Shown: piece by piece, positions 206-35,598 of the stretch
How the letters are laid out: each line of letters starts with the position of its first letter
Position numbering within the stretch: position 1 is the stretch's first letter
IMG/VR virus record: IMGVR_UViG_3300018481_000027
Coordinates: 1-54,002 of that record
From: a virus
Lineage: Duplodnaviria; Caudoviricetes
Strand: one strand, 5' to 3'
Length of the DNA stretch: 54,002 nucleotides
Program-made: the position numbers and the translations under genes
Notes under the pieces: generated by a model
The model's input: only the letters and a program-made list of their open reading frames with translations
Databases searched by the model: none
What the model was told of the DNA's origin: nothing

Positions 206-499
206 CTATCCTTCAGGTTGAGCTTGAGCAGAAAGCGCTTGTACTTCTCCTTGTTGAACCTTGCGATGAACACCACTAACGTTCTCTCGCACGATCTCGT
301 CTATGGCTTGCTGGATTGCGAAGCTTTGATCAGCTTCAGAGAGGTTGGTGGAGGTGCGTGCCACCCTTGCCAGGAGGCCGGGGGTGTTGTAACCAGCATT
401 CAGATCCCAGGCAAACCACTCATCCCACTGTGTCCATGGGTCGAATGGATTGTCCATCGTCGTCAGCATGTGCTCAGCACGTCCTTCGGTATCAGTCAC
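206..499 (-). CDS. conserved phage hypothetical protein, last gene of the RNAP operon
   Basis: 97-aa ORF coupled to the stop of 499..3387; LTTMDNPFDPWTQWDEW motif. Confidence 0.8.
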   Translation of the reverse strand: MTDTEGRAEHMLTTMDNPFDPWTQWDEWFAWDLNAGYNTPGLLARVARTSTNLSEADQSFAIQQAIDEIVRENVSGVHRKVQQGEVQALSAQAQPEG

Positions 500-3387
500 T
501 ATCCACCTCCATCTGCGATACCTGACATCAAGGTGGACACCGCAATGCCCAAGGCCCTTGACACCTCAGAGGGAGTAGCACCCGATGCCAACATCTGCTT
601 GGCACGTGCTGTTGCAACAGGAGTCATCACTGGATTGACTCGAGGCGTAGCCCGCTCACGGATCACGTCCAGATCAGAGTTCTTGAGAATCCTCTCCAAC
701 ATGTGATTGGAGATAGCCCCGTTCTGGATAGCGTCCCATTCCTTGTCGGTGATGGGGGAGTCCTTAGATCCAAGACGTACCTTGCCTGCACCTGTACGCA
801 GTCGAGCTTCGTTCAGTGCTTGACCCTTGATCTTCCTCTCTTCATCCTTCTCCATGCCAGGATTGGCACGCTTACGATCCGCCACTATGCGTCGGGCTAC
901 CGCCTGGGCCTGCCTCTCTAGGGGGGCATTCTTCTCAGCACGAAGCAACTTCGCTGACAGCGAATCAACCTCATGCTTGTACACCTTGTTGGCTGAAGGT
1001 GAGTAGGGCACGGGCTTGACGCTAATCAGTTCCCTACGTGTCTCGTTGGCCAAGGCCTTGAGTCGGTTGGAATGATCAGCATAGATCTGCTCCATACGTG
1101 TACCTCTACCAGGTGTAGAGACCAACGTATAGGCATCGTCCGTTTCAGCCAGCTTCTGAGAACGGAACGTAGCGTCCTTACCGTCTTTCCTCTTCTCACC
1201 CGTAGGGTCCCAGAGCTTCTTACCAGTACGGTTGTCTACCGTACCAGAAGAGATTCGAGTACGTCCAGGACCAGCGGCCTTAGCCTTCCTCTTCTTGGGA
1301 TGTGTCTGTGCCGTAGCACGGGTGATGAGAGTAGCCGCACCACGGGCTTGCCCAGTCTTCGGGTTCACCCCTTGATACGTCTTCTTCAGATCCAAGATTC
1401 CGTTAGCGCGTTCAGACGCCTTGAAATCAAGGTTGTGCTTCTCAGAATCAATGACCACCATAGAGTGCTTTACCGCACGAGCAAGCTCGTCGTTTGAGGC
1501 ACCCCTGATTGTCATGTCTGAGATGAGGTTTGTTACGTTCCCCATCTCATTCTGTTTTCTGACCTTGTTGGGGTTCTTCGGGTTTCCCTTGGAATCCACC
1601 CCGTAATCGACAGACCTGGACTTGGCGTTGTAGACGCCCCCATCGATCGTACGCATCCCGTCATAGGGACCGTAGTCAGCTTGCGGATCGAAGCCTTTCA
1701 GCTTTTCGAGTGCCGGGGTATGAGTGATCTGTCCCTTGTTGTTCGGAATGACCACCACATGGTCACCATCAAAGTCGGCGCCCGACAACCTCTCGGCTAC
1801 CTTGGGATGGATGGCCACGGCATCCGGGACTTCGCTATCCCGGAACATCTTCTTGGCCTCACGCGACCGGTTGTTGACGACCAGTTCCGGAATCTCGAAC
1901 TTTCCGGCATGCGGGAAGCGTACGAGAGCCACTCGTTCGCCGTTCTCGAACGTAGGCGCGTAGATTTCGTTTGGCTTGACGTGATTCGACGGAAGAATCA
2001 CCTTGGTTGCCTGATTCGGCATATTGACCGCTTTGAGATGCACGGCCGCCGCATCAGTTTCTTCCGCAAACGTTTCGAGAAGCTTCCTCTTGATCTGCGG
2101 GTTGGTGAGACTTCTGATCTGCTCGAGCTCTTCACGACGACGCTCATAAGTCAGATTCAGCTGTGTTTCAGCCAATTCTGGCTTCTGCTTGGAAAGCACT
2201 TGGCTGGACAGAGTTCGCGACCACTTGTCCCAGTCGCCTTCTTCGTTGATAAGATTCATCGCCGAAGAAACCTTGCCCTTGCTGTTCAGGATCTGACCGC
2301 CATCCTTGATCACAGCACCAAACGGATTACCCTTATCGACCTCTCCCGTTTCCGGATCCACTTTGAGCGGCTTCATCGCCTCGAGCTTGTTACCCGTACT
2401 CGACTTGTTGGTGTTGAACTGCAGGTCCACACCGTCAGGGAGATCGTCCTTATAGACGGCCATACCCTTGAGGTAGTGTGTCCCATTCACCGCGATTCGA
2501 ACCTGGGCGTAGCGAGACTTACCGAGAGAGACATCCGGAACGCCGGGACGCACATAGATCACGCCGTCAGCGTCAGCTCCACCGTCTTCCTTATAGCGAA
2601 TAGCCACTCGCTTAGCGGAAATGTTCAACGGCGGCTGGATGCCAAGGTCTCCTCTGAAAGTCCGGCCGTTGTCATCGGACTTCTCCGAGATCAGGCGGAT
2701 TTCGTTACGCTGAGCCCAAGCTTGTTTCTGGGTAACGCCGGGAGGGACGAGGACCTTGTACTTCGTCATCTCGCCCGTACCGACTTGCGGAGCGTTGAAG
2801 GTATGAACTCGATAGCCCTCTTCCTTGAGCATGGAGAGAGCGGTAGCGAACTTGTCGTCGCTGATCCCGATTCTCGTGGCCGGATTGTCACCAATCGGCA
2901 GATCGAGATTGACCTTGGAACCAACGTCAATGATGCCCTTCTCATCGACTTGACGCTTGAGCATGTCTGCCGTTTGCTGGAGAATATCCAACTTCTCCTG
3001 ACGACCCGGCTCCAGAAGCGAACGAACAGTGGACTCGTTGATGTCCATCTGCCTTGCAATCGCAGATGCACCCATGCCCTTATCCCGCAACTTCTGAGCA
3101 GTACGAATCTGTTCGATCTTCGTTTCCGTAACCGCACGAGACTTCAGAGCCCGAAGATCAGCGACGGTCATCTGCTGATCCTTGATGATGTTCCCGTCCT
3201 TGTCAACGGGAGAATATGCCTTGGCGATCTGGGAATCCGACATCTTGTCGATCTTCCTGTGCTGCTCGATGGTCTCCAGGAAAGTCTTCGATCGCTGCAG
3301 AGGATTCTTTCCCGATCCCCACGGATAACGTCCTGACTTACGGAGGATACCGTAATGAGCCAGGTATTCCTCTTCTTGCATGCGCAC
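499..3387 (-). CDS. putative single-subunit two-barrel RNA polymerase (YonO/RdRP-like) with HTH domains
   Basis: SGADFDGD (DFDGD at nt 1762-1776, about aa 538-542), upstream RFP (about aa 490), YAQVR...YLKGM (about aa 295-308), MGNVTN and HSMVVIDSEK; HTH-like segments GMGASAIARQMDINESTVRSLL and GATPSEVSRALGIAVSTL. Confidence 0.8.
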   Translation of the reverse strand: MRMQEEEYLAHYGILRKSGRYPWGSGKNPLQRSKTFLETIEQHRKIDKMSDSQIAKAYSPVDKDGNIIKDQQMTVADLRALKSRAVTETKIEQIRTAQKLRDKGMGASAIARQMDINESTVRSLLEPGRQEKLDILQQTADMLKRQVDEKGIIDVGSKVNLDLPIGDNPATRIGISDDKFATALSMLKEEGYRVHTFNAPQVGTGEMTKYKVLVPPGVTQKQAWAQRNEIRLISEKSDDNGRTFRGDLGIQPPLNISAKRVAIRYKEDGGADADGVIYVRPGVPDVSLGKSRYAQVRIAVNGTHYLKGMAVYKDDLPDGVDLQFNTNKSSTGNKLEAMKPLKVDPETGEVDKGNPFGAVIKDGGQILNSKGKVSSAMNLINEEGDWDKWSRTLSSQVLSKQKPELAETQLNLTYERRREELEQIRSLTNPQIKRKLLETFAEETDAAAVHLKAVNMPNQATKVILPSNHVKPNEIYAPTFENGERVALVRFPHAGKFEIPELVVNNRSREAKKMFRDSEVPDAVAIHPKVAERLSGADFDGDHVVVIPNNKGQITHTPALEKLKGFDPQADYGPYDGMRTIDGGVYNAKSRSVDYGVDSKGNPKNPNKVRKQNEMGNVTNLISDMTIRGASNDELARAVKHSMVVIDSEKHNLDFKASERANGILDLKKTYQGVNPKTGQARGAATLITRATAQTHPKKRKAKAAGPGRTRISSGTVDNRTGKKLWDPTGEKRKDGKDATFRSQKLAETDDAYTLVSTPGRGTRMEQIYADHSNRLKALANETRRELISVKPVPYSPSANKVYKHEVDSLSAKLLRAEKNAPLERQAQAVARRIVADRKRANPGMEKDEERKIKGQALNEARLRTGAGKVRLGSKDSPITDKEWDAIQNGAISNHMLERILKNSDLDVIRERATPRVNPVMTPVATARAKQMLASGATPSEVSRALGIAVSTLMSGIADGGG

Positions 3388-3965
3388 TACGACACCTCCT
3401 CTCTCAGGGCATTGAGGACACCATCAAAATGTACGATCTTATCCATGATCCCCTTTATGTAGGCAGGATTGACAGTGTCCAAAGTAACACTACCATCCTT
3501 GTAGATTCGGAGCTCAATGGCTCTGAGGGAAAACGGGTCTATCCCATACTCGAGACAGAACAATGCCGCGTACACATACAGCTGGTACATCGAAACTCGA
3601 GTTACTCCTGTCTTGAGATCGCTGATACGAAGAATCCGATAGCGATAGGCGATGGCGTCTACCGTACCAAAAGCGTTCGGCGAATAGAACAGCACAACCT
3701 CAGGAGACATCTTGTACTGAATGCACTGGTTGATGTATAACCCAACCGTGGTTCGCTCATCGTCTTGGACGATGTTTTCTTCGATACAGATCGCAGCGTA
3801 GCGATGTTGCTCAACACCTTCCAGTGCCGCGCGCAGTGTCTTGTATCGAAACCTCAGTTTCTCTTCGTCGTAGTTGATCCAGTGGTACGAACTAGGACTG
3901 AGGAACGCATGCTGACCCTCGAGATGCGAATGCCTCTTGAAGCGCAGTGAGCACCTCCTCTTCAT
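3387..3965 (-). CDS. PD-(D/E)XK nuclease-like protein (Cas4/DUF2800-like); true start probably near 3947
   Basis: HAFLSPSS, FGTVDAI, ISDLKTG and QLYVYAALF motifs. Confidence 0.7.
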   Translation of the reverse strand: MKRRCSLRFKRHSHLEGQHAFLSPSSYHWINYDEEKLRFRYKTLRAALEGVEQHRYAAICIEENIVQDDERTTVGLYINQCIQYKMSPEVVLFYSPNAFGTVDAIAYRYRILRISDLKTGVTRVSMYQLYVYAALFCLEYGIDPFSLRAIELRIYKDGSVTLDTVNPAYIKGIMDKIVHFDGVLNALREEVS

Positions 3966-4209
3966 TCTCGGGGTAGATGAACGCCGCGAACGACATCTTG
4001 TTCATCAGATCCACGTAGTAGTCCTGGTTGGGACGCTTCTTGGCGGTAGCCGATGCCTTGACGTCCAGCATGGCCCAGAACGGACCCCAGAAGATCGTGA
4101 GGTCGAGAATTCCTTGTCGATAGTTCGGATCGTTCTTGAGGATCTCGCACCCAGGAAACAGCCGCTTCAGCCTACGAATCAACTTTGCCTGGTAAGTCGC
4201 TTCGGTCAC
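3892..4209 (-). CDS. VRR-NUC-like nuclease
   Basis: TEATYQ...GILDL...WAMLDVK...RPNQ...FIYPENEEEV; GTG start after AAAGGGGG. Confidence 0.7.
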   Translation of the reverse strand: MTEATYQAKLIRRLKRLFPGCEILKNDPNYRQGILDLTIFWGPFWAMLDVKASATAKKRPNQDYYVDLMNKMSFAAFIYPENEEEVLTALQEAFASRGSACVPQS

Positions 4210-4230
4210 GAAACCCCCTTTCACTGGTCG

Positions 4231-4269
4231 AAAAAAGAAAAGAGGAGATCGGAATATTACCCTCCTTCT
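4231..4269 (-). ncRNA. promoter-proximal hairpin plus U-tract (tiny RNA or attenuator)
   Basis: AGGAGG...TCTCCT stem followed by CTTTTCTTTTTT directly after the promoter motif at 4270-4295. Confidence 0.45.
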
Positions 4270-4295
4270 ATTATATGGCGCGAATTACATGCGTC
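4270..4295 (-). promoter_or_regulatory. phage promoter motif (variant GACGCA-N14-TATAAT) upstream of the nuclease/RNAP operon
   Basis: minus strand GACGCA TGTAATTCGCGCCA TATAAT. Confidence 0.65.
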
Positions 4296-4522
4296 CCAGT
4301 ATCTGAAAAAAAATAGGCCGTGTTTGGTCCGCTATTAGACGTTTTTTGGCTCTACGCCTCATCATCGTCAGGGTCATACGGCTGCAGAGAGACATGTACG
4401 GTGTCACCTCCTGCGGCTACCGCTTCCTTGAACACAGGAGCCAAGTGCTCTCCCAGAATTCGACGATCCGATTGGGGTAGGCGAAACGAAATATTCACCA
4501 AGATTTCGGGTTCCATAGGCTC

Positions 4523-12173: not shown

Positions 12174-12204
12174 AACTTCCTTTCTAGGGATAGCGAGTGG
12201 TCTC

Positions 12205-12230
12205 ACTATATGCCCAGTTTTTGCCGCGAA
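12205..12230 (-). promoter_or_regulatory. phage promoter motif
   Basis: TTCGCG-N14-TATAGT, abutting terminator 12229-12258. Confidence 0.8.
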
Positions 12231-12266
12231 AAAAGAGAAGCCGTGATGGCTCCTCTCCTTGAACTA

Positions 12267-12521
12267 CTAGAGCTGGGGGTGCTCCGTGTTGACGAGGTAC
12301 AGATCTCCTCCGCGTGCGAGGGGAAATACGATACCGCCGCCCGGCTTGTCGATCAGATGCTGAAGCTGCTCGGGGGTAGCGAAGGCCCAGATGTTTCCAC
12401 CGCGCATGTTTAGCGCGATGGCGACGAGGGCGCCTGCTCCCACGAGGGCTCCAGAAGTGAATGCGATGGCCGTGCGATGGTTCTGTACGAACGCTCGGGT
12501 GCGGGTAATCTGGTTCTTCAT
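12267..12521 (-). CDS. cassette gene, small membrane protein
   Basis: TM segment; own promoter and terminator. Confidence 0.75.
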   Translation of the reverse strand: MKNQITRTRAFVQNHRTAIAFTSGALVGAGALVAIALNMRGGNIWAFATPEQLQHLIDKPGGGIVFPLARGGDLYLVNTEHPQL

Positions 12522-12549
12522 GGATACTCCTTGGGGTAGTAGTTGTTCT

Positions 12550-12575
12550 ATTACACCCCGTGATTTTCCCGCGAT
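12550..12575 (-). promoter_or_regulatory. phage promoter motif
   Basis: ATCGCG-N14-TGTAAT. Confidence 0.75.
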
Positions 12576-27096: not shown

Positions 27097-27198
27097 ATAA
27101 ATCCTCGAATTTTGGGTTGGGCAAAAATGAAAGGAGATGATCTTTTCCGAGTTCATCAGTCGGCGACCCCTGGCGGGGTCCTTATCTGGTATCCTTTC

Positions 27199-27224
27199 AC
27201 TATAAGGCGTGGATTCCGCGCGAA
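27199..27224 (-). promoter_or_regulatory. phage promoter motif
   Basis: TTCGCG-N14-TATAGT, abutting a terminator. Confidence 0.8.
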
Positions 27225-27264
27225 AAAAGAGAAGCCGTGTTAGGGCTTCCCTTTCGAGGCGGAA

Positions 27265-27420
27265 CTACTTGGATTGCGCGATACGACGGGCAACTTCCTG
27301 CTTCCAGGCCAGCGAGTTCATGAACTTGCTCCCGGCGGTCAGCAGTCCAGCTGCGACGGCGAGGGCAAGAACAGGATTCTCTTCGGCCTGCTTCTTCAGG
27401 TTGTTGAGGAACTCGTTCAT
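27265..27420 (-). CDS. cassette gene, 51-aa membrane protein
   Basis: translated by hand (MNEFLNNLKKQAEENPVLALAVAAGLL...); RBS AAGGAG; own promoter and terminator. Confidence 0.75.
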   Translation of the reverse strand: MNEFLNNLKKQAEENPVLALAVAAGLLTAGSKFMNSLAWKQEVARRIAQSK

Positions 27421-27446
27421 GGGTCTCCTTAGATTGGTTCTTTCTC

Positions 27447-27472
27447 ATTACATGACGTGTTTTACGCGCGAA
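27447..27472 (-). promoter_or_regulatory. phage promoter motif
   Basis: TTCGCG-N14-TGTAAT. Confidence 0.8.
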
Positions 27473-27507
27473 AAAGAGAAGCCGTGTTATGGGCTTCTCT
27501 TCCGAGA

Positions 27508-27834
27508 TTAGTCCTTCTTCTCGTCAGTCTCTTCAGCGGCCTTCTTGGCTGCGCGATTGGTCTTGTAGTTCTCGTAGCGCTTGGCGGCGTAGTCGAAACT
27601 TGCATCGACGAGCTTGTCCGTATAGGGCTGGGCATTCGCCGCAACTCCCCAGCCAACCATCGGGGATCCGACCTTGACGATCATGTCGTCCTTGTCGAAA
27701 CCGGTGTAGTTGGTGGCGAGGTTTGCGGTAATTACCGTAACCTTGTACGAAACAAGTCCGAAGACAAGCTTCTTCACGGCGTTGCGCGCGGTGAACTGCG
27801 ACTCGTTGTCGTCAGTCTTTTCGGGCTGGGTCAT
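27508..27834 (-). CDS. cassette gene, hypothetical protein
   Basis: between promoter 27870-27895 and a terminator at about 27471-27500. Confidence 0.8.
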   Translation of the reverse strand: MTQPEKTDDNESQFTARNAVKKLVFGLVSYKVTVITANLATNYTGFDKDDMIVKVGSPMVGWGVAANAQPYTDKLVDASFDYAAKRYENYKTNRAAKKAAEETDEKKD

Positions 27835-27869
27835 GAAAATACTTCCTTTCAGAGGGGTTTGTAGGTCTC

Positions 27870-27895
27870 ATTATACAGCGTGAAATATGCGCGAA
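27870..27895 (-). promoter_or_regulatory. phage promoter motif
   Basis: TTCGCG-N14-TATAAT. Confidence 0.8.
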
Positions 27896-27904
27896 CCGCG
27901 TGTC

Positions 27905-28385
27905 AAACCATCCCACCGTTCGCACTCTACTGGCGCCGTCGCAGGAGACTAAAGCCGGTCTTTCGTAGAGCAAATCATCAAGAGGGCGCAATGCGGGGAA
28001 CCTTGAGCCAGGCTCCCCAATTTAGCTGTCATTTGAGATCGAGCGTGTTCGCTGGCGGGGAGGTTTCATGACCCCACGAAGACGCAGATCCCCTCTTGGT
28101 GCGTGTAAATATGGTCCCGATGATCGCTCTGAGTTATGCATACGCGATTGAACACTCAGATAAAGTCAAGGACTCCGTCGTTACGAACCTTGACCCACGA
28201 CCATCGGGCTGAGACCCACCCCATCCTTTACCAGGAAGGCTTTGGGTCCTAAAGAAGATAGACTTGAGTGGACGCGTACGGACGATTCCTCCCAGGCGCC
28301 TGACGGCTGCACCCAGATCGTGCCATTTGCTGTCGTTGACTACTACCGAGCGCATTAGCCGCTGGTATCCACTCAGGTTGACCCT
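27905..28385 (-). ncRNA. large structured non-coding region
   Basis: nested inverted repeats; no credible ORF. Confidence 0.5.
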
Positions 28386-28391
28386 ATCTCT

Positions 28392-28997
28392 CTAGGAGAG
28401 CTTGTAGCGGCCGTCTGCCAGACCGGCCTTCAAATCTTCGGCGTCCATGTCGCCCATCTCGGCGACCGTGATGACGCGTGGTTCGGTGACGGCGGGCGTA
28501 ACCGTGTCACCGTTGGCGAAGGCTGCCTCGACCGCCGCTTCTTCCGACGAGGGCCCGTCCTTGGCCTGCTTCTCCGCGATCGCGCGCACCTCCGCAGCGA
28601 TCTTGTCGAGGTTGTGCGGGATGATGCCGTTCATGAACTCGGCGGCTGCTTCGGCGCTCGTGCAGAGATCGAAGATGAGCTGGGAATACGCCTCCGTGGA
28701 GGAGAAATCATCCCAGATCGCCTGGTTCTTGATGAACCGGTCACCTTCCTTCTTGCCGTAGGAGCGCCGGATGATGTCCCGCATCTCCTCCATGATCGCC
28801 TTGCCGTCCTGGGCGTCGACGATACGTTGAAGCTTGGCCTGCATGCCGGTGAGCGTCTTGCCCTCGCTCTCGTACTTGGTGCCGTGCTCTTCCATCTCCA
28901 TCTGGACCAGATCGGCCTTGGAGATATGGAAGTAGTGTTCCTCCGTCACCTCCTGCTGGGTGAACGGGTTCTCGTAGACGATCGTCTTCTTCAGCAA
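28392..28997 (-). CDS. conserved phage hypothetical protein
   Basis: LKKTIVY, YFHISKA, SYGKK..DRF.K, F..TEAYS.L, AAEF.NGI. Confidence 0.8.
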   Translation of the reverse strand: MLKKTIVYENPFTQQEVTEEHYFHISKADLVQMEMEEHGTKYESEGKTLTGMQAKLQRIVDAQDGKAIMEEMRDIIRRSYGKKEGDRFIKNQAIWDDFSSTEAYSQLIFDLCTSAEAAAEFMNGIIPHNLDKIAAEVRAIAEKQAKDGPSSEEAAVEAAFANGDTVTPAVTEPRVITVAEMGDMDAEDLKAGLADGRYKLS

Positions 28998-29462
28998 AGC
29001 GAAATATCCCCCTGGTTGGATTCGCGAAGCCTTTGCTCGGTATTGTGCGCTTCACGCATTAGCCGCCATAGACTCCGAGGCGACACCCTGCTAGTACTAC
29101 TTCTCGGCGAGCAGCTTGTCGGCGAGAAACGCCAGCCCGGCGAGGGCGGCGATCACGGAGATGATGATGAGCACGAGCTTCATGTAGCAGTCACCTCCTC
29201 CTCGGACGTAGGCTCGTCGGGCTCTTCGGAAGCGGTCTTGGCACAGAGTGCCGTGATGGCTCCGGCGATGAAGCCACCGACCGTGCCGATGGCGAGAAGT
29301 GCTCCCAGCACGATGCCGACGAGAGCGCCGATGGTGAACCTCACGGCGTCGTCACCGTCTCGTCTCCGGGGGCCTTCGGGTCGTCGCCGAGGAAGACCCG
29401 GATATAGCCGGTGTGGTAGCCCATGGCGATGGCTCCGACGGCCACGCCGAACAGGAAGTGCT

Positions 29463-29744
29463 TCATGGCGTCTCCTTCGCGAGCTTCTTGAGCTCCCGCT
29501 TCGCCTTCAGATCCTTGACGATCGTGCGACCGCCGTGGATGGCCAGCAGGGTGACGCCGGTGGCGACGATGCCGCTGGCGATGGCGATGGGGGTGCTGTG
29601 GGTGCGGAAGTTGAAACCGATGAGCTCCACGGCGTGGTCCTTCGCGTGCTCCGCGGCCTCCGCAATATTGCTGGCAGCGTAACCTGCCTGTCGAGCAGCC
29701 AGCTCAGCGTGCTCCTGAGCCAGCTCCTTGGTTGCTTCGGACAT
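29463..29744 (-). CDS. small membrane protein
   Basis: C-terminal TM helix. Confidence 0.7.
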   Translation of the reverse strand: MSEATKELAQEHAELAARQAGYAASNIAEAAEHAKDHAVELIGFNFRTHSTPIAIASGIVATGVTLLAIHGGRTIVKDLKAKRELKKLAKETP

Positions 29745-29777
29745 TTACTCTCCTGTGTTGGTGAAATATGACGGTGT

Positions 29778-30086
29778 TCAGGACCCAGTGCGACCGGCCA
29801 TGTAGCGGAAGGCGCCGACGACGAACATGCTCGCGCCCAGCCCCATGAGGGTGCCGCCCCACACCCGGTTGTCCTGCGCGGCCATTTCGGCCGTCTTGTT
29901 GACGACAGTCCGGTTGATCACCGGAGGCTCGTTTCGGAGCCGGGTGATCTGCTGGTTGAGACCGCTGATCGAGACCTTCTGGTCGGCGATCGTCTCGGTC
30001 ATCTCGTTGTACTTCTCGATCGCGATCTTCACGAACCCGTCACTTGCCGTCTTGAGGGTCTCGACGGTTTCGTTGGTCTCAGCCAT
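29778..30086 (-). CDS. small coiled-coil membrane protein
   Basis: coiled coil plus C-terminal TM; RBS. Confidence 0.7.
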   Translation of the reverse strand: MAETNETVETLKTASDGFVKIAIEKYNEMTETIADQKVSISGLNQQITRLRNEPPVINRTVVNKTAEMAAQDNRVWGGTLMGLGASMFVVGAFRYMAGRTGS

Positions 30087-30381
30087 TGTACTCTCCTTGT
30101 GCTGTGACTCGTGTTCTAGTCGTGGAAGAACTTTTTGGACATGGATATGCCGGGCAAGTGGTAGTACTCCTCCTTGAGCGGAGTGGGTAGACTTACCCGA
30201 AGCGGTAGCTCCGCGATACCTTTAGGGGCACCTTGCGGAGGCTCCCAGCGCCGAGCGTCGTCACGCTTTTGATCACGCATGGCGGCTAGAAGTTTGGACC
30301 GAGGATCTTTAGACCGACCCCTCCGACTGTGCCATGATCTGTGCCATGACATCAGCCGGAGCTCGGGTTCTGCGAGACGGT

Positions 30382-31188
30382 CTAGTTGTGGTTTGGGCGG
30401 ATGAAATCCTGTCGCGGGAAGGCCGCGAAGTCGATCGCGAGACAGGGACGACCGTCAGGAGCTTCCGCCGTGGTGATCTTCAGCTCCAGAAGGTGATCAC
30501 GATTCCAGCCGACCTCCTCCGACCAGACGGTCTTCTCGAGGCCGAGTTCGTTGTAGAAGAACGTCGCATCGGCGTAGTCGTGATTGTGGATCTCCGCGTT
30601 GGTCGCGTTCTGCGCCCGCTTGATCCCCTCCATCGTGCCGCGGAAATATCGGTTCGTGGCCTCGTCGTAGCAGAGGATCTCGCCCTCGATGATGACCAGG
30701 TTCTGGAAACCGTCGGACTTGTTCACCCGATCCTGGGCGAGCTCGTCGTCGATGGCGATCTTCTTCGGGCCGGTGAGCTTCTCGGCGACCTTCTCCTTGT
30801 ACTCGGAGAGGTTACGCTCGGCCAGCCCGTAGGCAGCAGCGAGGGCAGCGGCCTTCTGAGCCGACACCCGGTTGGACATGATGATCGCCGCGATCGTGGT
30901 GCCGCCGACGAGGACCGGCGGGAGGAAATACGGAATGGCGATCCGAGCCTTCGCCCAGTTGTCGAGCTGCGGACGAGGCTGATCGACATCGATGACGGTG
31001 TCACCGGTCTCCTCAGTCATCATCTTGTACTGCGTTGCGCGGACGATCTCGGCGTACTTGTATCCGCCTCGTCCAGCGAGCACGGCGGTGGCGACGGTTC
31101 CGACGACACCTCCCGCGGTGAGGAGAGCGGCGGCATTGTCCTCAGCGAACTGAGACACCGTCTCCTTGATTCCACTTAGAAACTGCAC
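30382..31188 (-). CDS. DUF6353-like phage protein, paralog B
   Basis: LLTAGGVVG.VATAVLA, AALAAAY, YD..T.RYF, FY.ELGL, VGW, PCLAIDF. Confidence 0.75.
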   Translation of the reverse strand: MQFLSGIKETVSQFAEDNAAALLTAGGVVGTVATAVLAGRGGYKYAEIVRATQYKMMTEETGDTVIDVDQPRPQLDNWAKARIAIPYFLPPVLVGGTTIAAIIMSNRVSAQKAAALAAAYGLAERNLSEYKEKVAEKLTGPKKIAIDDELAQDRVNKSDGFQNLVIIEGEILCYDEATNRYFRGTMEGIKRAQNATNAEIHNHDYADATFFYNELGLEKTVWSEEVGWNRDHLLELKITTAEAPDGRPCLAIDFAAFPRQDFIRPNHN

Positions 31189-31227
31189 TCTCCTGAACTC
31201 CTTGAGATTGGGGTTGGGTCTCACGAC

Positions 31228-31283
31228 AAAAAAAGAGAAACCTCGCATTGGCATGCGATTGCGTTTTTACGCTGGTCTCTCCT
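31228..31283 (-). ncRNA. small RNA cassette A (three-way junction)
   Basis: GAGAGACC/GGTTTCTC outer stem, GCGT-AAAA-ACGC and TCGCAT-GCCA-ATGCGA hairpins, T7, directly after a promoter. Confidence 0.65.
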
Positions 31284-31309
31284 ATTAGATGACGTGAATT
31301 TCCCGCGAA
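31284..31309 (-). promoter_or_regulatory. phage promoter motif
   Basis: TTCGCG-N14-TCTAAT. Confidence 0.8.
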
Positions 31310-31635
31310 TTCGGGTCAACCCAGAAAACGCAGAAACGACGGGTGGTTCGAGGCGGCCGATTCATCCATCGAACCTCCGCCATGTCCCACCCTCTCTCGC
31401 CTGTTGCTCGCTGTTTACGGAGTTCTTCGAACGCTTCGTCAGGATCATCCGTAGTAAGCAAAATATGGTGTACAAGCTGTTTAGGCGGTGGGCCAAGACG
31501 ACCTTCTCGTCTCAAGCGATCGAGTCTTTTACGAGTCGCTTGCTCCTCGATGTCCCGGCTCCTCCGGCGCTTGTCCTGAAGATATAGGCTTTCAGGAGTC
31601 ACCGGAGGAGCAATGAGCCTTGTCGGGTACTGCAC
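31285..31635 (-). CDS. hypothetical protein
   Basis: co-oriented ORF; 3' end overlaps the promoter. Confidence 0.55.
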   Translation of the reverse strand: MQYPTRLIAPPVTPESLYLQDKRRRSRDIEEQATRKRLDRLRREGRLGPPPKQLVHHILLTTDDPDEAFEELRKQRATGERGWDMAEVRWMNRPPRTTRRFCVFWVDPNSREIHVI

Positions 31636-31638
31636 TCG

Positions 31639-32022
31639 TTAGGCGACGACGGGCTGCGGCTTCTTGCTCACCCAGGTCGAAGCGATGAGGAATAGCGCCG
31701 CGAGCATCGAGACGTAGAGCCCCCAGCTCGGCGAGATGAACTCCGCCGCAGCCTCCTCAGCGCCACCGAGGTTGATCAGGCAGCGAACGCCTTCGCCGAT
31801 GACCGCCAAGCCGACGATGATCGAGACGGGCCGCATGAACTTGCCGGTGAGAGCGGAGGCGATGATGAGCGCGGTGCCGCCGAAAACGACGAGACCGAGC
31901 TCGATGCTGTTGGTGGGGCCGACGCCGAGGATGCCGAAGACGCTGAACCAGGGGCCGATGCCACCGAAGATCAGTACAACGGCGCCGATGGCCAGCGCAG
32001 TGTTACGGTTGAAATTGAACAT
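31639..32022 (-). CDS. multi-pass membrane protein
   Basis: about 4 hydrophobic segments; GPW and WGLY motifs. Confidence 0.8.
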   Translation of the reverse strand: MFNFNRNTALAIGAVVLIFGGIGPWFSVFGILGVGPTNSIELGLVVFGGTALIIASALTGKFMRPVSIIVGLAVIGEGVRCLINLGGAEEAAAEFISPSWGLYVSMLAALFLIASTWVSKKPQPVVA

Positions 32023-32032
32023 GTTGGTCTCC

Positions 32033-32326
32033 TTAGTGCTGTCGATGCCCGGGATCGGGCGTGATTGGATGGGGCTTGTCGGACTCGGGTAGATCGTATG
32101 CCTCCCGATACTGCTCTTCGATCCGCTTCATCGCCCGACGATCAGACGAGTCTACGGATATGAAGGTGACGCGGTCCCTTTGACCCTTGAACGTGATGTC
32201 CACGAGTCTAAGGAACTTCCTCTGGCGCCGTTCGATCACGATTTGGTTGATCGCGACCAGTAGAAGCTTGGCGATCTGCCAAGCAACGACGCCGAGAATG
32301 AAATATGCGATGTCTCCGTCGTTCAT
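32033..32326 (-). CDS. small membrane-anchored protein
   Basis: N-terminal TM. Confidence 0.65.
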   Translation of the reverse strand: MNDGDIAYFILGVVAWQIAKLLLVAINQIVIERRQRKFLRLVDITFKGQRDRVTFISVDSSDRRAMKRIEEQYREAYDLPESDKPHPITPDPGHRQH

Positions 32327-32541
32327 CCCTGCGGTCTCCCTCGTCGATCGACGTAAAGCCCCTCGGGGAGCGCTGCTTGTGCTACTTTCAGCGCTTCGTC
32401 GAGGAGCAAAAGCACGTTCTCCGGTTCTCCCCGGAAGACTATGTAGAAGCCACTGCCTTCTTTCATGTCTCCCAGGGAGATACGGGTCTTCATCAGTTTG
32501 TCATCCGACTCGCGGATGATGGACACCGGAGTGGGAGTCAT
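32323..32541 (-). CDS. hypothetical protein
   Basis: coupled ORF. Confidence 0.6.
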   Translation of the reverse strand: MTPTPVSIIRESDDKLMKTRISLGDMKEGSGFYIVFRGEPENVLLLLDEALKVAQAALPEGLYVDRRGRPQG

Positions 32542-32793
32542 TGGTGCTCGCGATCGACCTTAGTCGTATTGGAAAACTGCTTCTTCTCCCGGTACTCACG
32601 GCACGGACAAACTCGGCACGGCCAAGCGAAGGGCTTCTCAAGATCTGGAGGATGTGCTCCCAAATCGTGACCGCATTCGCAGGCCATCAGTAGAACCTCC
32701 GAAATCGTCTCGGGAGGCCCTGGATCTTGCGTCGGGTGCTGCGGCGACCGGCCAGAAATCCAGCCCAGTACGCCACCTTGATGAGCGAGAGCT

Positions 32794-33060
32794 TCATGAT
32801 TCTATCACCGGTCCTCCTCCGCGCTCGAGATCGGGGCGAACTATCAACGTGGGCGGAGATGTGGTCATGTCATAGGCACGCATGGCGTAATAAGCGCGCA
32901 CCTCGACATCGCTTTCCCGAAGCCAATTCTCGATGGCTTCGGGCCCACTGCAGGCCATCTCCAAGGCCTCGCGTGCGGTACTACCGACTCCTGCGAACGT
33001 CGGAGGAGGACCTGACCAATCGATGCTGTTTCGGAGAACGATATAGACGACGTTGGTCAT
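32794..33060 (-). CDS. hypothetical protein
   Basis: coupled ORF. Confidence 0.55.
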   Translation of the reverse strand: MTNVVYIVLRNSIDWSGPPPTFAGVGSTAREALEMACSGPEAIENWLRESDVEVRAYYAMRAYDMTTSPPTLIVRPDLERGGGPVIES

Positions 33061-33353
33061 CGCGGTACCACCAGACGGACCGCTCTGACATCGAGACGCA
33101 GATGGTCGGCGATTGCGAAATCTGTGTAACCAGCCTCTCGCATTTCCCGAATCACACCGGGTATCGCCGCTTCTTCGATCTGAGCTCCGTCGAGAAGATA
33201 CTTCATGATCTCTACGGCGCTCATCGACTTAGTCACCTTCTCATTCTCATTCGTGAGTAACGTACCCGCTCGAGCGAAGAGCCCGTCCGAGTAGGCACCC
33301 AGAAAATTAGAAGCGACGAAACCGACGAAGAATCCTGCAACGAGCTTCTTCAC
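33057..33353 (-). CDS. hypothetical protein with an HTH-like C-terminus
   Basis: GYTDFAIADHLRLDVRAV. Confidence 0.6.
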   Translation of the reverse strand: MKKLVAGFFVGFVASNFLGAYSDGLFARAGTLLTNENEKVTKSMSAVEIMKYLLDGAQIEEAAIPGVIREMREAGYTDFAIADHLRLDVRAVRLVVPR

Positions 33354-33628
33354 GGCTTATCCCCCCTGAGGAGAGCGGCGAAGTTCAGGAGCTTCTTGCC
33401 CCGCTCCTCCAGATCGGCGGCAATCTGGTCAGCCGTCTTCGTCGTGGCCAGAACGGGCATGCCGTTCTTGAGCAGTTGGTACACCCAGCTCTCGCTGATG
33501 CCCATCTCCTGAGCGATGGCACGGTTGGTCATACCTTTGTCCTTGAGCTCTCGCACCTTGGTCAGGCGCTCCTGCATGCGCTGCTTCTGCTCGGCGGCCC
33601 TCTGGGCTCGTTCTTCGGTGATCTTCAT
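33350..33628 (-). CDS. helix-turn-helix DNA-binding protein
   Basis: ELKDKGMTNRAIAQEMGISESWVYQLLK. Confidence 0.8.
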   Translation of the reverse strand: MKITEERAQRAAEQKQRMQERLTKVRELKDKGMTNRAIAQEMGISESWVYQLLKNGMPVLATTKTADQIAADLEERGKKLLNFAALLRGDKP

Positions 33629-33900
33629 TGACCTCTCACTTTCTGGATAAGTTTGCGAGTGACGATGGCGAACGGGCCGAAGAACACGATGCAGGTTATC
33701 GTGAAGGCTGAGTAATCCCTGAACAGCTCTTCGACGGTATACCTTTCATCTTTCTTTCCTGCAGCGATCCGTTCCTCGACGATCTTGTCCGTCAGTTTGT
33801 AGACGTAGATCGTACCCACAATCACAACCGTGATCATGAATATCCACAGGTTTGCGCTCATCGGTTTCTCATCTCGCGGACGAAGATCCAGAGCAACCAC
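33625..33900 (-). CDS. two-TM membrane protein
   Basis: two hydrophobic segments. Confidence 0.6.
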   Translation of the reverse strand: MVALDLRPRDEKPMSANLWIFMITVVIVGTIYVYKLTDKIVEERIAAGKKDERYTVEELFRDYSAFTITCIVFFGPFAIVTRKLIQKVRGQ

Positions 33901-34023
33901 AGGCCACCAGAGAGCATGACCATGAAGCAGTCGAACAGGAAGCGCATGACGCCATAGCGTCGCGGCGGACGAGACGTGATATAGACACGGTCGCGCGGCG
34001 CCTTGCCGTCGTAGTAGAAGACC

Positions 34024-34329
34024 TTAGGCATCGGGATTCTCCTCGGGATACTTGTCGGCGATCTCCTTCAAACTGGCTTGAATGCCCTCCAGGATGACCT
34101 TGTCGAACTCGCTGGGCTCGACGTCGTTCTCGTGGATAATCCGCCACAGCTGGTTGGCCTCCTGGATCAATTCCTTGATCACCAACGTTAGATCGTCTCG
34201 TTCGTCTATGACCATCTTGAGCGACTTGAGAAGCCGCTTGATCTGGAATATCGCGATGATGTTGAGGCCATACGATCCGCCGACGAGCACCCACGGATAT
34301 GTATCCGACATGATGAAACGCCTAAGCAC
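34024..34329 (-). CDS. membrane-anchored coiled-coil protein
   Basis: TM plus ENDVEPSEFD, similar to the C-terminus of 11931..12173. Confidence 0.65.
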   Translation of the reverse strand: MLRRFIMSDTYPWVLVGGSYGLNIIAIFQIKRLLKSLKMVIDERDDLTLVIKELIQEANQLWRIIHENDVEPSEFDKVILEGIQASLKEIADKYPEENPDA

Positions 34330-34502
34330 CGTACTTCACTCCCTTGGCGGAGGGGTTGCGCTTGAGAGCGCGCCGTTCGGCAACCTCTCGCGACGCGGCC
34401 CGGACCTTGACAGTACGGGTCATGTTGTTCTCGTAGACGAGTACGATCGAGAACACCTGCTTGGACTTCTTGGTCCGCATGGCGGATCCTTTCTGTTGGG
34501 TG

Positions 34503-34586
34503 AAAAAAAGAGAGACCCATGTTGTCTCAGTGCCTCATAAAGGCTCTTCAACTCTGGTGCCTCATAAAGGCTCCAGCATGGGTCTC
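34503..34586 (-). ncRNA. small RNA cassette B with two identical hairpins
   Basis: GAGACCCATG/CATGGGTCTC outer stem enclosing the 17-nt direct repeat GAGCCTTTATGAGGCAC twice; T7. Confidence 0.7.
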
Positions 34587-34612
34587 ATTATGTGGCGTGA
34601 ATTTCCCGCGAA
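34587..34612 (-). promoter_or_regulatory. phage promoter motif
   Basis: TTCGCG-N14-CATAAT. Confidence 0.8.
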
Positions 34613-35035: not shown

Positions 35036-35065
35036 CCTTGCTCCTAGTTTGGGGTATGGTCTCAG

Positions 35066-35596: not shown

Positions 35597-35598
35597 GG

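What the first reader, a model, noticed from the sequence alone, without database searches (positions are those of the whole stretch)
499..3387. Hidden single-subunit two-barrel RNA polymerase fused to HTH domains
Seen: this 962-aa protein would easily be labelled only as an HTH protein, but it carries SGADFDGD (about aa 538-542) preceded about 48 aa earlier by VRFPH, plus YAQVR...LKGM, MGNVTNL and HSMVVIDSEK. Established: DFDGD and RxP form the catalytic double-psi barrel of multisubunit RNAPs. The Q-x-R...KG, G-x-x-x-N and HS..VD..K motifs, in this order, are typical of eukaryotic RdRPs (QDE-1/RDR) and SPbeta YonO-type enzymes. Inference: the phage encodes its own DNA-dependent RNAP, and the N- and C-terminal HTHs may act as built-in promoter-recognition modules.
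Basis: partly seen in the sequence, partly recalled or inferred. Interest (0 to 1): 0.93.

Follow-up and report, generated by a model that had tools for sequence, protein, structure and literature searches.

The report
Phage single-chain two-barrel RNA polymerase
The 962-residue "helix-turn-helix protein" at the end of this soil phage genome is very probably a one-chain RNA polymerase of the cellular (two-barrel) type with DNA-binding modules at both ends; the family was already predicted in print but I found no bench test of it.

Summary
ORF 499-3387 (minus strand, 962 aa) carries every motif named, at the stated positions, and all are invariant in 131 of 131 aligned relatives.

The reading as a two-barrel RNA polymerase holds:
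- AlphaFold models are confident (pLDDT 89.4 whole, 92.5 core).
- Foldseek ranks QDE-1, plant RDR2 and Thermus phage gp62/gp64 first, then beta-prime/Rpb1 subunits.

It is not hidden or new. PHROG 4291 matches full length. A 2010 paper and a 2021 preprint already describe the family, including both HTH ends and DxDGD. This scan has reported the family on at least six other genomes.

I found no bench test in four literature searches. Membership in the YonO family was not shown: profile-profile probability is 1.9%.

Two leads:
- A roughly 30-nt promoter-like motif lies on the coding strand only. It is conserved across polymerase-bearing phages of different host phyla and absent from two host-matched phages that lack the gene.
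- The N-terminus resembles the DUF7211 tag found on head-module proteins, and a rare portal-polymerase fusion exists. Both hint at delivery in the virion.

The parts
499..3387 (-). Gene for the 962-aa single-chain two-barrel RNA polymerase (phrog_4291 family)
   Evidence: ORF. phrog_4291 matches at E=0 over residues 2-958. AlphaFold pLDDT 89.4, pTM 0.83. Foldseek top hits are QDE-1, RDR2 and P74 gp62.
3307..3369 (-). N-terminal peptide, residues 7-27 (EYLAHYGILRKSGRYPWGSGK): nearly invariant, predicted disordered, resembles the DUF7211 tag
   Evidence: G13, S18, G19 and R20 are identical in 131/131 sequences. pLDDT is below 50 for residues 9-25. A profile of 11 DUF7211 segments has its best hit in the whole polymerase profile here: E=9.9e-5, probability 58%.
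2938..3297 (-). N-terminal helical DNA-binding region (residues 31-150), containing the HTH at 97-124 (window 3016-3099)
   Evidence: Pfam HTH_23 scores 27.9 bits, above the 24.6 cut-off, at residues 97-124; weaker hits to HTH_7, HTH_38 and Sigma70_r4_2. Helices are seen in the model. In homolog P0139 the N-terminal HTH passes the Sigma70_r4_2 cut-off; in P0137 the passing hit is at the C-terminal HTH.
2398..2625 (-). First (beta-like) double-psi barrel, residues about 255-330, with D274-G275, Q295, R297 and K307-G308
   Evidence: Five strands at 261-325 in the model. The residues are invariant. The barrel boundaries are my reading of the secondary structure, not a residue-level superposition.
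1744..2016 (-). Second (beta-prime-like) double-psi barrel, residues about 458-548, with R490-x-P492-H493 (window 1909-1923) and the Mg-binding loop D538-x-D540-G-D542 (window 1762-1785 for SGADFDGD)
   Evidence: Six strands at 460-548. The residues are identical in 131/131 sequences. hhalign puts R-x-PH and D-x-DGD in register with the same motifs of the YonO family. Pfam RdRP touches 529-652.
1435..1566 (-). Helical hairpin after the catalytic barrel (residues 608-651) carrying MGNVTNL and HSMVVIDSEK
   Evidence: Helices 608-627 and 632-651. M615, G616, N620, D647 and K650 are invariant. The equivalent G...N and D..K are invariant in the YonO family. Its role (bridge-helix-like) is inferred, not tested.
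508..747 (-). C-terminal helical DNA-binding region: residues 881-913 plus the HTH at 923-960
   Evidence: The family profile hits HTH chains of the PDB at profile positions 850-898 (8vd6 E=4e-13, 2lvs E=5e-4). Weak Pfam HTH_20 and HTH_24 hits at 933-953. In homolog P0137 the C-terminal HTH passes the HTH_23 and Sigma70_r4_2 cut-offs.
3387..3965 (-). Upstream gene in the same operon: RecB-type exonuclease (192 aa)
   Evidence: phrog_3953 E=6.7e-61. The same position is seen in ReqiPoco6, GirlPower and IMG/VR contigs.
3892..4224 (-). VRR-NUC-type endonuclease (110 aa), first gene of the operon
   Evidence: phrog_93 E=1.6e-12. The syntenic gene in GirlPower is annotated VRR-Nuc.
206..499 (-). 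Small conserved gene (97 aa) after the polymerase; its start overlaps the polymerase stop by 1 nt
   Evidence: phrog_4303 E=1.6e-36. A gene sits in the same position in P118, ReqiPoco6, D_HF4_2 and GirlPower. Junction shown.
4266..4298 (-). Divergent copy of the promoter-like motif, upstream of the nuclease-polymerase operon
   Evidence: Member of repeat family D1 at 67% identity; sequence. It has TTCGCG-CCA-TATAAT but lacks the upstream half.
36889..39272 (-). Cluster of 9 copies of the promoter-like motif TTCGCG-N5/6-TTCACG-N3-5-TATAAT-GAGA, most preceded by a terminator-like hairpin and followed by a small ORF
   Evidence: Pattern hits: 16 in the window, all on the minus strand, 0.24 expected. 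Downstream ORFs with an RBS at 19-33 nt in most cases. Terminator-like hairpins.
27197..35155 (-). Six further copies of the motif, at 27197-27224, 27445-27472, 27868-27895, 31282-31309, 34585-34612 and 35128-35155
   Evidence: (0-2 mismatches each).
12203..12575 (-). Two weaker copies of the motif, at about 12203-12233 and 12548-12575
   Evidence: Repeat family D1 at 70% identity; pattern hit with 3 mismatches.

Best explanation
The gene encodes a single-chain, two-barrel (double-psi beta-barrel) RNA polymerase. It belongs to the family typified by Lactococcus phage 1706 orf75 and by the 'HTH DNA-binding domain protein' found at the right genome end of a large actinophage lineage (PHROG 4291).

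Shown here:
- the fold
- the invariant active-site residues: a DG acid, QxR...KG in the first barrel, RxPH and DxDGD in the second
- HTH modules at both ends
- conserved gene order

Inferred:
- It copies the phage's double-stranded DNA into RNA without host core enzyme or sigma factor.
- It starts at the roughly 30-nt motif (variable upstream half, N5, TWCAYR, N3, TATAATGAGA) that precedes the phage's small-gene cassettes and several middle genes. The terminal HTH modules would supply promoter recognition.

More tentative (about 40%): the first molecules arrive with the DNA. On this view the N-terminal DUF7211-like peptide loads the enzyme into the capsid, as it may do for the tagged proteins encoded beside the portal gene in relatives.
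For: Family: phrog_4291 at E=0, full length. 250 phage records match, 249 of them over at least 80% of the length. 1,995 representatives at 50% clustering have E<=1e-3, and 829 have E<=1e-30. P118, of the 1706 group, aligns end to end at 34% identity with all motifs kept.

Fold: the whole-protein model has pLDDT 89.4 and pTM 0.83. Foldseek against the PDB gives QDE-1 at E=9e-9, maize RDR2 at 1.3e-7 and P74 gp62 at 1e-5, all with probability 1.00, followed by beta-prime/Rpb1 chains. The core-only model (residues 250-700, pLDDT 92.5) gives QDE-1 at 4.5e-10 with query-normalised TM 0.51-0.53, gp62 at 8.4e-9, gp64 at 9.5e-9 and RDR2 at 7e-8. All rows listed are two-barrel polymerases. BFVD agrees: phage 'RdRP' at 2.4e-7 and a P23-45 protein at 1.3e-5.

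Active site: 17 motif positions are identical in 131/131 sequences. They correspond in order to the eight residues that PMC2919709 calls invariant in all two-barrel polymerases (passages seen).

DNA-dependence by analogy: YonO and P23-45 gp64 are tested DNA-dependent enzymes of dsDNA phages (passages).

Promoter:
- The full pattern gives 16 hits, all on the coding strand, against 0.24 expected.
- None of the copies in 26-40 kb is picked up as a TTGACA-17-TATAAT promoter. That scan found 4 sites against 5.5 expected, and none uses the motif's TATAAT box.
- The same architecture, in register, appears in Streptomyces phage GirlPower and Lactococcus phage P118.
- The core pattern TWCAYRNNNTNTAATGA with up to 1 mismatch gives, forward/reverse: window 10/0, GirlPower 9/0, P118 10/0, ReqiPoco6 11/0, two IMG/VR contigs 5/0 and 2/0, oral phage 2/0. 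In phages without this polymerase it gives phiC31 0/0, sk1 1/0, the SPbeta 50-kb stretch 1/0 and the whole SPbeta record 1/1.
- All 7 of sk1's annotated host-type promoters have a TTGACA-like box at 16-17 nt. P118's motif has none.

Virion hint:
- The ReqiPoco6 record calls its homolog similar to '1706_gp75 structural protein'.
- DUF7211 tags mark GirlPower genes 9-11, checked against Pfam (gene 8 by the peptide pattern only), and proteins in three other relatives; one of these was checked against Pfam, the rest by the pattern.
- The tag resemblance scores E=9.9e-5.
- P0168 joins a complete portal domain (PF04860, 2.9e-29) to the polymerase core.
Against: No activity, template preference or promoter use has been measured for any member that I could find.

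Pfam RdRP is below its cut-off (16.7 vs 23.8 bits). A sequence profile of the family finds no polymerase in the PDB: only HTH chains, plus 8h2n at a non-significant E=0.51.

Profile-profile comparison with YonO is not significant.

Global TM-scores for the whole protein are low (0.31, rmsd about 20 A). The match rests on Foldseek's local scores and on the core-only model.

The promoter-polymerase link is correlative. All motif-bearing phages are relatives, so the motif could be read by another conserved phage factor. Its TATAAT box could also serve the host primary sigma factor; actinobacterial promoters often lack a -35 box (my own knowledge).

The motif does not precede the structural genes within the window.

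Virion evidence is indirect. The polymerase N-terminus does not reach Pfam DUF7211 on its own. The portal fusions are two singletons whose DNA I could not inspect, and they are not reproduced in 11 related IMG/VR loci, of which I checked ORFs in 3.
Confidence: 0.8

Rival explanations
1. It is a real two-barrel polymerase, but the repeated motif is read by the host RNA polymerase with its primary sigma factor. The phage enzyme transcribes something else, for example late genes from an unseen promoter, as YonO does in SPbeta.
For: The motif contains a near-perfect TATAAT box. YonO transcribes only the late operon (passages). No motif copy precedes the head and tail genes in the window, so another promoter class must exist or lie in the missing 8% of the genome.
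Against: The conserved positions extend well beyond a -10 box (TWCAYR-N3 upstream and GAGA downstream) and hold across host phyla and GC contents. There is no -35 box at 16-18 nt, whereas host-dependent Lactococcus phage sk1 has one in 7 of 7 annotated promoters. Two host-matched phages without the polymerase lack the motif.
Confidence: 0.22
2. It acts in DNA replication rather than gene expression, making primers or an origin R-loop on phage DNA. [quoted passage not shown]
For: It sits with a helicase, HNH, VRR-NUC and RecB-type nuclease. The preprint places it in the replication block. Its closest solved relative, QDE-1, works on single-stranded templates (abstract of PMC9508822 seen in the listing).
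Against: The phage already encodes a 1,278-aa fused primase-polymerase (phrog_4210 at E=0, with primase families matching residues 132-566). Two sequence-specific HTH modules and a dispersed promoter-like motif fit transcription better than priming.
Confidence: 0.08
3. It is an RNA-dependent RNA polymerase, as the PHROG and some GenBank labels say. It would copy or amplify phage or host RNA.
For: The label of phrog_4291 and of 3 of the 40 listed records. The best structural matches are eukaryotic RNAi polymerases.
Against: The label comes from the Pfam family name, not from an assay. Every tested phage member of this fold class that I read about is DNA-dependent. QDE-1 itself has both activities (abstract). 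A dsDNA phage with DNA-binding HTH modules on the enzyme has no obvious RNA template.
Confidence: 0.05
4. It is only a DNA-binding regulator whose polymerase-like core is a catalytically dead relic.
For: Most database labels say HTH protein. Only the HTH passes Pfam's cut-off.
Against: All metal-binding and substrate-binding positions are identical in 131 of 131 sequences at 42-67% identity and in the 34%-identical P118 protein. A dead domain would not show this.
Confidence: 0.02

Closest known systems
Lactococcus phage 1706 orf75 group (tested here with P118 gp79) and the actinophage 'HTH DNA-binding domain protein' (PHROG 4291; described in PMC2919709 and bioRxiv 10.1101/842583)
   Same: Full-length homology: phrog_4291 at E=0; P118 at 34% identity end to end; isolated actinophages up to 51%. 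It has the same N-terminal tag, HTH at both ends and all catalytic motifs. The gene order is the same (nucleases, polymerase, small phrog_4303 gene, genome end), as is the promoter-like motif.
   Different: Only sequence divergence. The nearest relatives are uncultured (84% identity at most), and the host is unknown. This is a new member, not a new kind.
Neurospora QDE-1 and plant RDR2 (eukaryotic RNA-silencing polymerases; PDB 7y7t, 2j7n, 7w82)
   Same: These are the best structural matches: core model E=4.5e-10, query-normalised TM 0.51-0.53. Pfam RdRP touches the catalytic loop region.
   Different: Identity is 9-13%. They are eukaryotic, have no terminal HTH modules, and play a different biological role. 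The Pfam score is below the family cut-off.
Thermus phage P23-45 gp64 / P74-26 gp62 non-virion RNA polymerase (PDB 8f72, 8f5m; PMC10770324)
   Same: A phage-encoded single-chain two-barrel enzyme that reads its own promoter motif on dsDNA (passages). The structural match scores E about 9e-9 with 15-16% identity.
   Different: They are about 600 residues long, and neither Foldseek row covers the HTH ends of my model. They do not appear in the sequence-profile search of the PDB, and their promoter is a different, GC-rich motif. In that phage the virion enzyme is a separate protein fused to the tape measure.
Bacillus prophage SPbeta YonO (PMC5467207)
   Same: The YonO family has the same ordered series of invariant motifs: DG, xR, KG, RxPH, DxDGD, G...N, D..K. 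hhalign places RxPH and DxDGD in register. YonO is a tested DNA-dependent phage polymerase.
   Different: Not detectably the same family: probability 1.0% and 1.9%. In the YonO family an invariant four-cysteine cluster (C799, C802, C816, C819) occupies the C-terminal region, and no HTH came up there. The SPbeta genome lacks the promoter-like motif.
crAss-like phage phi14:2 gp66, virion-packaged two-barrel polymerase (PDB 6vr4)
   Same: Same fold class, and a precedent for a two-barrel polymerase carried in the particle (entry title; cited).
   Different: Only a weak structural match: E=2.8e-2, probability 0.23. It is a 2,166-residue protein with no shared accessory domains seen.

Membership tests
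Two-barrel (double-psi beta-barrel) RNA polymerase superfamily | Metal-binding D-x-D-G-D loop in the beta-prime-like barrel | tested here: met
   D538, D540, G541 and D542 are identical in 131/131 sequences. The loop lies between strands 523-526 and 543-548 of a six-strand unit.
Two-barrel (double-psi beta-barrel) RNA polymerase superfamily | Invariant Arg and Pro (Rpb1 R446/P448 equivalents) upstream of the Asp loop | tested here: met
   R490 and P492 are identical in 131/131 sequences, 48 residues before D538. The residue list is taken from PMC2919709. Equivalence is by motif order and by register with YonO, not by superposition.
Two-barrel (double-psi beta-barrel) RNA polymerase superfamily | Two basic residues and one acidic residue in the beta-like barrel (Rpb2 K979, K987, D837 equivalents) | tested here: inconclusive
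   R297 and K307 are identical in 131/131 sequences and D274 in 129/131, and they are in the right order. However, the first basic residue is Arg rather than Lys, and I had no residue-level structural alignment to prove equivalence (the VIA-align libraries were unavailable).
Two-barrel (double-psi beta-barrel) RNA polymerase superfamily | Overall fold matches solved two-barrel polymerases | tested here: met
   Foldseek probability is 1.00 to QDE-1, RDR2, gp62 and gp64, and beta-prime/Rpb1 chains follow. 27 matches have E<=1e-3 for the core model, and all listed rows are polymerases of this class.
Two-barrel (double-psi beta-barrel) RNA polymerase superfamily | Template-dependent NTP polymerisation | not testable with these tools
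   Needs purified protein. I found no published assay for this family.
PHROG 4291 / phage 1706 orf75-like HTH-flanked polymerase | Full-length match to the family profile | tested here: met
   E=0, 1157.5 bits, residues 2-958 on profile positions 5-906 of 909.
PHROG 4291 / phage 1706 orf75-like HTH-flanked polymerase | HTH modules at both termini | tested here: met
   N-terminal HTH_23 is above its cut-off. The C-terminal HTH is seen through the family profile against PDB HTH chains and through Pfam cut-off passes in homolog P0137, with sub-threshold hits in P0139. The preprint reports the same.
PHROG 4291 / phage 1706 orf75-like HTH-flanked polymerase | Conserved position: after the RecB-type exonuclease, before a small conserved gene, near the genome end | tested here: met
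   Window; P118, ReqiPoco6 (with a cos end 530 nt after), D_HF4_2 and GirlPower; IMG/VR loci.
YonO family (SPbeta-type) | Detectable sequence-profile homology to YonO | tested here: not met
   hhalign probability is 1.0% against a single YonO sequence and 1.9%, E=0.025, against a 38-sequence YonO profile. The one aligned stretch is the catalytic barrel, in correct register.
Pfam RdRP (PF05183, eukaryotic-type RNA-dependent RNA polymerase) | Score at or above the curated gathering cut-off | tested here: not met
   16.7 bits against 23.8, E=0.0031, residues 529-652 only. The preprint reports HHpred probability 95.68% with an alignment, which I could not repeat.
Virion-packaged phage RNA polymerases (as a functional class) | Protein present in purified particles | not testable with these tools
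   There are only hints: a 'structural protein' note for 1706 gp75 in a GenBank record, the DUF7211-like tag and the portal fusion P0168. The original 1706 paper and Summer et al. 2011 were not readable.
Pfam DUF7211 (PF23847) tagged proteins | Match to the DUF7211 model | tested here: inconclusive
   There was no Pfam hit for the polymerase itself at E<=1. A profile of 11 DUF7211 segments does find the polymerase N-terminus as its best hit (E=9.9e-5, probability 58%), with a 4-residue insertion.

The most novel reading that the evidence does not exclude
The enzyme is a self-sufficient, sigma-independent transcription machine that rides in the capsid. On this reading its DUF7211-like N-terminal peptide loads it into the procapsid; in a rare lineage a direct fusion to the portal protein replaces that peptide. 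It enters the cell with the DNA. Its built-in HTH modules then recognise a private promoter whose core (TWCAYR-N3-TATAATGAGA) has been kept across phages of Actinobacteria and Firmicutes, firing the small-gene cassettes before any host enzyme is needed.
Probability: 0.3. Interest if true: 0.75.

Novelty: new member of a known kind. Interest (0 to 1): 0.4.

Why it matters
Two-barrel polymerases are the enzymes that transcribe all cellular genomes. Small single-chain versions show how little of that machine is essential, and only a few have been studied at the bench (YonO, crAss gp66, P23-45 gp64/gp96).

This family is very large: 1,995 cluster representatives and 250 isolated phage genomes. It occurs in phages that many teaching and dairy laboratories already grow, yet most records call it an HTH protein.

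It seems to come with a defined promoter and with built-in DNA-binding modules. That would make it a convenient system for asking how a minimal two-barrel enzyme finds and opens a promoter without sigma. It would also correct a widespread annotation.

For this particular window the result is ordinary: one more member of a family already predicted in print and already met several times in this scan.

Tried and rejected
- **Sequence search of the PDB.** The single protein found nothing relevant. The family profile found only HTH chains and a non-significant touch on the P23-45 tape-measure polymerase (8h2n, E=0.51).
- **YonO kinship.** Negative with a single YonO sequence and not significant with a YonO-family profile.
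- **DNA-level search of phage records.** Megablast found no match.
- **N-terminal tag on unrelated shorter proteins.** The 111 hits look like contig-end fragments of the same family, many with the same HTH. Two carry unrelated Pfam domains and are probably chimeric. So this search gave no support. The tag occurs once in the window. The window's own record has no DUF7211 match, but that search also rang in none of the controls, so it says little.
- **Portal fusion.** I could not see its DNA. The 11 related IMG/VR loci match only the core, and the 3 whose ORFs I listed have the ordinary standalone gene.
- **Expression.** No RNA holder is listed for window 34000-40000, and I did not lay reads.
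- **Literature strings.** Searches for the promoter and tag motifs returned nothing relevant, and DUF7211/PF23847 returned no paper.
- **Supplements** of the papers were not opened. Figure S1 of the preprint and the family alignments of PMC2919709 and PMC10770324 may already contain this family's motif alignment.
- **Ideas rejected.** A dead polymerase domain is rejected because of the conservation. A canonical sigma-70 promoter is rejected because no -35 box is present.

Full report
**What is there.** The window is a 54,002-base IMG/VR virus record, classed as linear and estimated 92% complete. Nearly all its genes are on the minus strand. ORF 499..3387 (minus) encodes 962 residues. Its GTG start shares one base with the stop of the upstream exonuclease gene, and its stop shares one base with the start of a 97-codon downstream gene.

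**Which family, and what is already known.**
- PHROGs holds a full-length family, phrog_4291, labelled 'RNA-dependent RNA polymerase', which matches at E=0 over residues 2-958.
- Pfam passes only the N-terminal HTH_23 (27.9 bits against a 24.6 cut-off). RdRP PF05183 touches residues 529-652 at 16.7 bits, below its 23.8 cut-off.
- tblastn finds the protein in 250 phage records, 249 of them over at least 80% of its length and all below 60% identity: Arthrobacter 95, Gordonia 55, Streptomyces 54, Lactococcus 13, and others. The gene lies at the right end of the genome. Of the 40 records listed, 22 call it an HTH DNA-binding protein and only 3 an RNA-dependent RNA polymerase.
- In metagenomes the family is huge. 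7,986 of 8,000 scored candidates match. 1,995 representatives at 50% clustering have E<=1e-3, and 829 have E<=1e-30.
- Ruprich-Robert and Thuriaux 2010 (PMC2919709, passages read) already placed the phage 1706 protein among five families of YonO-like two-barrel polymerases, and listed eight residues invariant in all such enzymes.
- The preprint 10.1101/842583 (passages read) describes exactly this protein as the signature gene of an actinophage supercluster plus the Lactococcus 1706 group and a Faecalibacterium phage. It notes HTH domains at both ends, an HHpred match to Pfam RdRP and the DxDGD loop.
- P118, a member of the 1706 group, aligns with the query end to end at 34% identity with all motifs kept.
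- Four literature searches turned up no biochemical test of this family.
- This scan has reported the same family on at least six other genomes with the same reading.

**Conservation.** I aligned the query with 130 representatives at 42-67% identity. I left out four of the 150 listed because they are fragments or long fusions, and sixteen others unseen to stay within the size limit. Q295, R297, K307, G308, R490, P492, S535, G536, D538, D540, G541, D542, M615, G616, N620, D647 and K650 are identical in 131 of 131 sequences. D274 is identical in 129, H641 in 118 and S642 in 125. In order, these fit the published invariant set: an acid and two basic residues in the beta-like barrel, then Arg-x-Pro and three Asp in the beta-prime-like barrel. 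One caveat is that the first basic residue here is Arg. I also could not make a residue-level superposition, because the VIA-align libraries were unavailable.

**Structure.**
- With that alignment AlphaFold2 gives a confident model: mean pLDDT 89.4, pTM 0.83. Only residues 1-25 and two short loops fall below 50.
- The model shows two strand-rich units at about 255-330 and 458-548, joined by long helices. A helical hairpin at 608-651 follows the second unit, and helical regions sit at both ends.
- Foldseek against the PDB ranks QDE-1 first (E=9e-9), then maize and Arabidopsis RDR2 and Thermus phage P74 gp62, all at probability 1.00. Beta-prime and Rpb1 chains follow at E of 4e-3 to 3e-2, and crAss gp66 at 2.8e-2. 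Global TM-scores are low (0.31), as expected for a multi-domain protein.
- A second model of the core alone (residues 250-700, pLDDT 92.5, pTM 0.88) gives QDE-1 at 4.5e-10 with query-normalised TM 0.51-0.53, gp62 at 8.4e-9, P23-45 gp64 at 9.5e-9 and RDR2 at 7e-8. Bacterial beta-prime, plant Pol IV and poxvirus large subunits follow. Every listed row is a two-barrel polymerase.
- The viral library agrees.

**Relation to YonO.** I fetched YonO from the SPbeta record. A profile of my family against the single YonO sequence finds nothing (probability 1.0%). Against a 38-sequence YonO-family profile the only aligned stretch is the catalytic barrel. There R-x-PH and D-x-DGD are in correct register, but the probability is 1.9% and E=0.025. 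The YonO family does keep the same ordered series invariant: D249-G250, R266, K271-G272, R492-x-P494-H495, D535-x-D537-G-D539, G593...N597 and D625..K628. But this protein is not a member of the YonO family. The YonO family has an invariant four-cysteine cluster in its C-terminal region where this family has an HTH.

**Context.** The neighbours are a VRR-NUC endonuclease, a RecB-type exonuclease, the polymerase and a small phrog_4303 protein. An HNH endonuclease and a helicase lie upstream, then a 1,278-residue fused primase-polymerase, and further on the tail and head genes. The same order is seen in P118, ReqiPoco6 (where a cos end follows 530 nt after the small gene), an oral phage, GirlPower and IMG/VR contigs.

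**A promoter-like motif that travels with the gene.** I followed a lead in the first-stage notes on this window.
- I found a repeat family of at least 15 copies. On the coding strand it reads: terminator-like hairpin, T-run, TTCGCG, five or six bases, TTCACG, three to five bases, TATAAT-like box, GAGA.
- A pattern for it gives 16 hits, all on the coding strand, against 0.24 expected.
- Most copies sit 19-33 nt before a ribosome-binding site and a small ORF. Nine lie within 36.9-39.3 kb, just after the tail genes.
- A consensus scan for TTGACA-16/18-TATAAT promoters in 26-40 kb finds 4 sites against 5.5 expected, and none uses the motif's TATAAT box.
- Streptomyces phage GirlPower and Lactococcus phage P118, whose polymerases are 51% and 34% identical to the query, carry repeated motifs of the same architecture, in register: TCGCA-N5-TACAyG-gCC-TATAATGAGACCC and ATTTTA-N5-TACATA-CCC-TATAATGAaAG. 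They too lie after the tail and lysis genes and before small genes.
- The core pattern TWCAYRNNNTNTAATGA with at most one mismatch gives, forward/reverse: window 10/0, GirlPower 9/0, P118 10/0, ReqiPoco6 11/0, two IMG/VR contigs 5/0 and 2/0, and an oral phage 2/0. The reversed-pattern control gives 0/0 in each except P118 (1/3).
- Phages without this polymerase give: phiC31 0/0, sk1 1/0, and SPbeta 1/0 (50-kb stretch, control 1/0) and 1/1 (whole record, control 3/1).
- The seven annotated host-type early promoters of sk1 all have a TTGACA-like box at 16-17 nt. P118's motif has only A/T filler there.
- The preprint does not mention promoters or transcription.
- This is correlative evidence among related phages. 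But a non-coding element kept across host phyla and across GC contents, with conserved positions outside the -10 box, is best explained by a conserved phage-encoded reader, and the polymerase is the obvious candidate. I put this at about 60%.

**Hints of delivery in the virion.**
- The ReqiPoco6 record describes its homolog as similar to '1706_gp75 structural protein'. I could not read the source papers.
- The polymerase's first 26 residues are almost invariant yet predicted disordered.
- In relatives, several unrelated proteins encoded between terminase and portal carry Pfam DUF7211, a 25-residue motif of unknown function, sometimes twice. Among them is a GNAT acetyltransferase.
- A profile of 11 such segments finds its best match, in the whole 906-column polymerase profile, exactly at the polymerase N-terminus: E=9.9e-5, probability 58%, with a 4-residue insertion.
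- The window itself shows only the polymerase copy, plausibly because the record stops in the head protease gene and lacks the portal side.
- Two metagenomic proteins carry the core behind long N-terminal extensions in place of the tag and first HTH. P0168 (1,789 aa) has a complete portal domain (PF04860 at 2.9e-29; phrog_12 at 2e-35) and a charged linker. P0166 shares parts of that linker. Their cores are 80% identical.
- Both are singletons. I could not inspect their DNA, and related IMG/VR contigs have the ordinary gene.
- Earlier agents of this scan reached the same tag hypothesis on other genomes.
- I rate virion carriage at about 40%.

**Verdict.** The finding is a new member of a family already predicted in print and already catalogued. 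What remains open, and worth a bench test, is whether the family is active, whether it reads the conserved motif through its HTH modules, and whether it is packaged.

Noticed in passing
window 27197-39272 (also 12203-12575 and 4266-4298), minus strand: There are 16-17 copies of a roughly 30-nt promoter-like motif, most preceded by a terminator-like hairpin. They form terminator-promoter-small-gene cassettes. The motif core is conserved in Streptomyces, Rhodococcus and Lactococcus phages that carry the same polymerase.
   Followed up: yes
proteins P0168 and P0166 (metagenome cluster representatives; no window coordinates): In these two proteins the polymerase core is fused behind about 1,050 extra residues. 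P0168 starts with a complete phage portal domain, and both lack the N-terminal tag and first HTH. They are singletons, and I did not see their DNA.
   Followed up: partly
protein P0137 (1,062 aa; metagenome cluster representative): A 2H-phosphoesterase (2'-5' RNA ligase superfamily, PF13563, 27.7 bits against a cut-off of 27) is fused in front of the polymerase. The DUF7211-like peptide is therefore internal in this protein.
   Followed up: no
L017 (Streptomyces phage GirlPower) 6-3357: Genes 8-11, just upstream of the portal gene, carry DUF7211 peptides (L.HYGVKGMKWG), some twice. Gene 9 is a GNAT acetyltransferase flanked by two copies.
   Followed up: partly
window 19283-23119, minus strand: A 1,278-residue fused primase-polymerase: phrog_4210 at E=0, with primase families on residues 132-566 and polymerase families on about 683-962.
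   Followed up: no
window 53302-54000, minus strand: The record ends inside a head maturation protease gene whose family (phrog_3270) also matches a major head protein profile. In GirlPower the homolog is a 675-residue protease-capsid fusion. The missing part of the genome is therefore the portal/terminase side.
   Followed up: partly
alignment A5 (YonO family), positions 799-819 of YonO: The YonO family has four invariant cysteines (C799, C802, C816, C819) in its C-terminal region, which looks like a zinc ribbon. This family has an HTH at its C-terminus instead.
   Followed up: no
window 24962-25909 and 30382-31254, minus strand: Two paralogous genes of the same unknown family, phrog_2152 (E=4e-78 and 2.9e-58), lie about 5 kb apart.
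   Followed up: no
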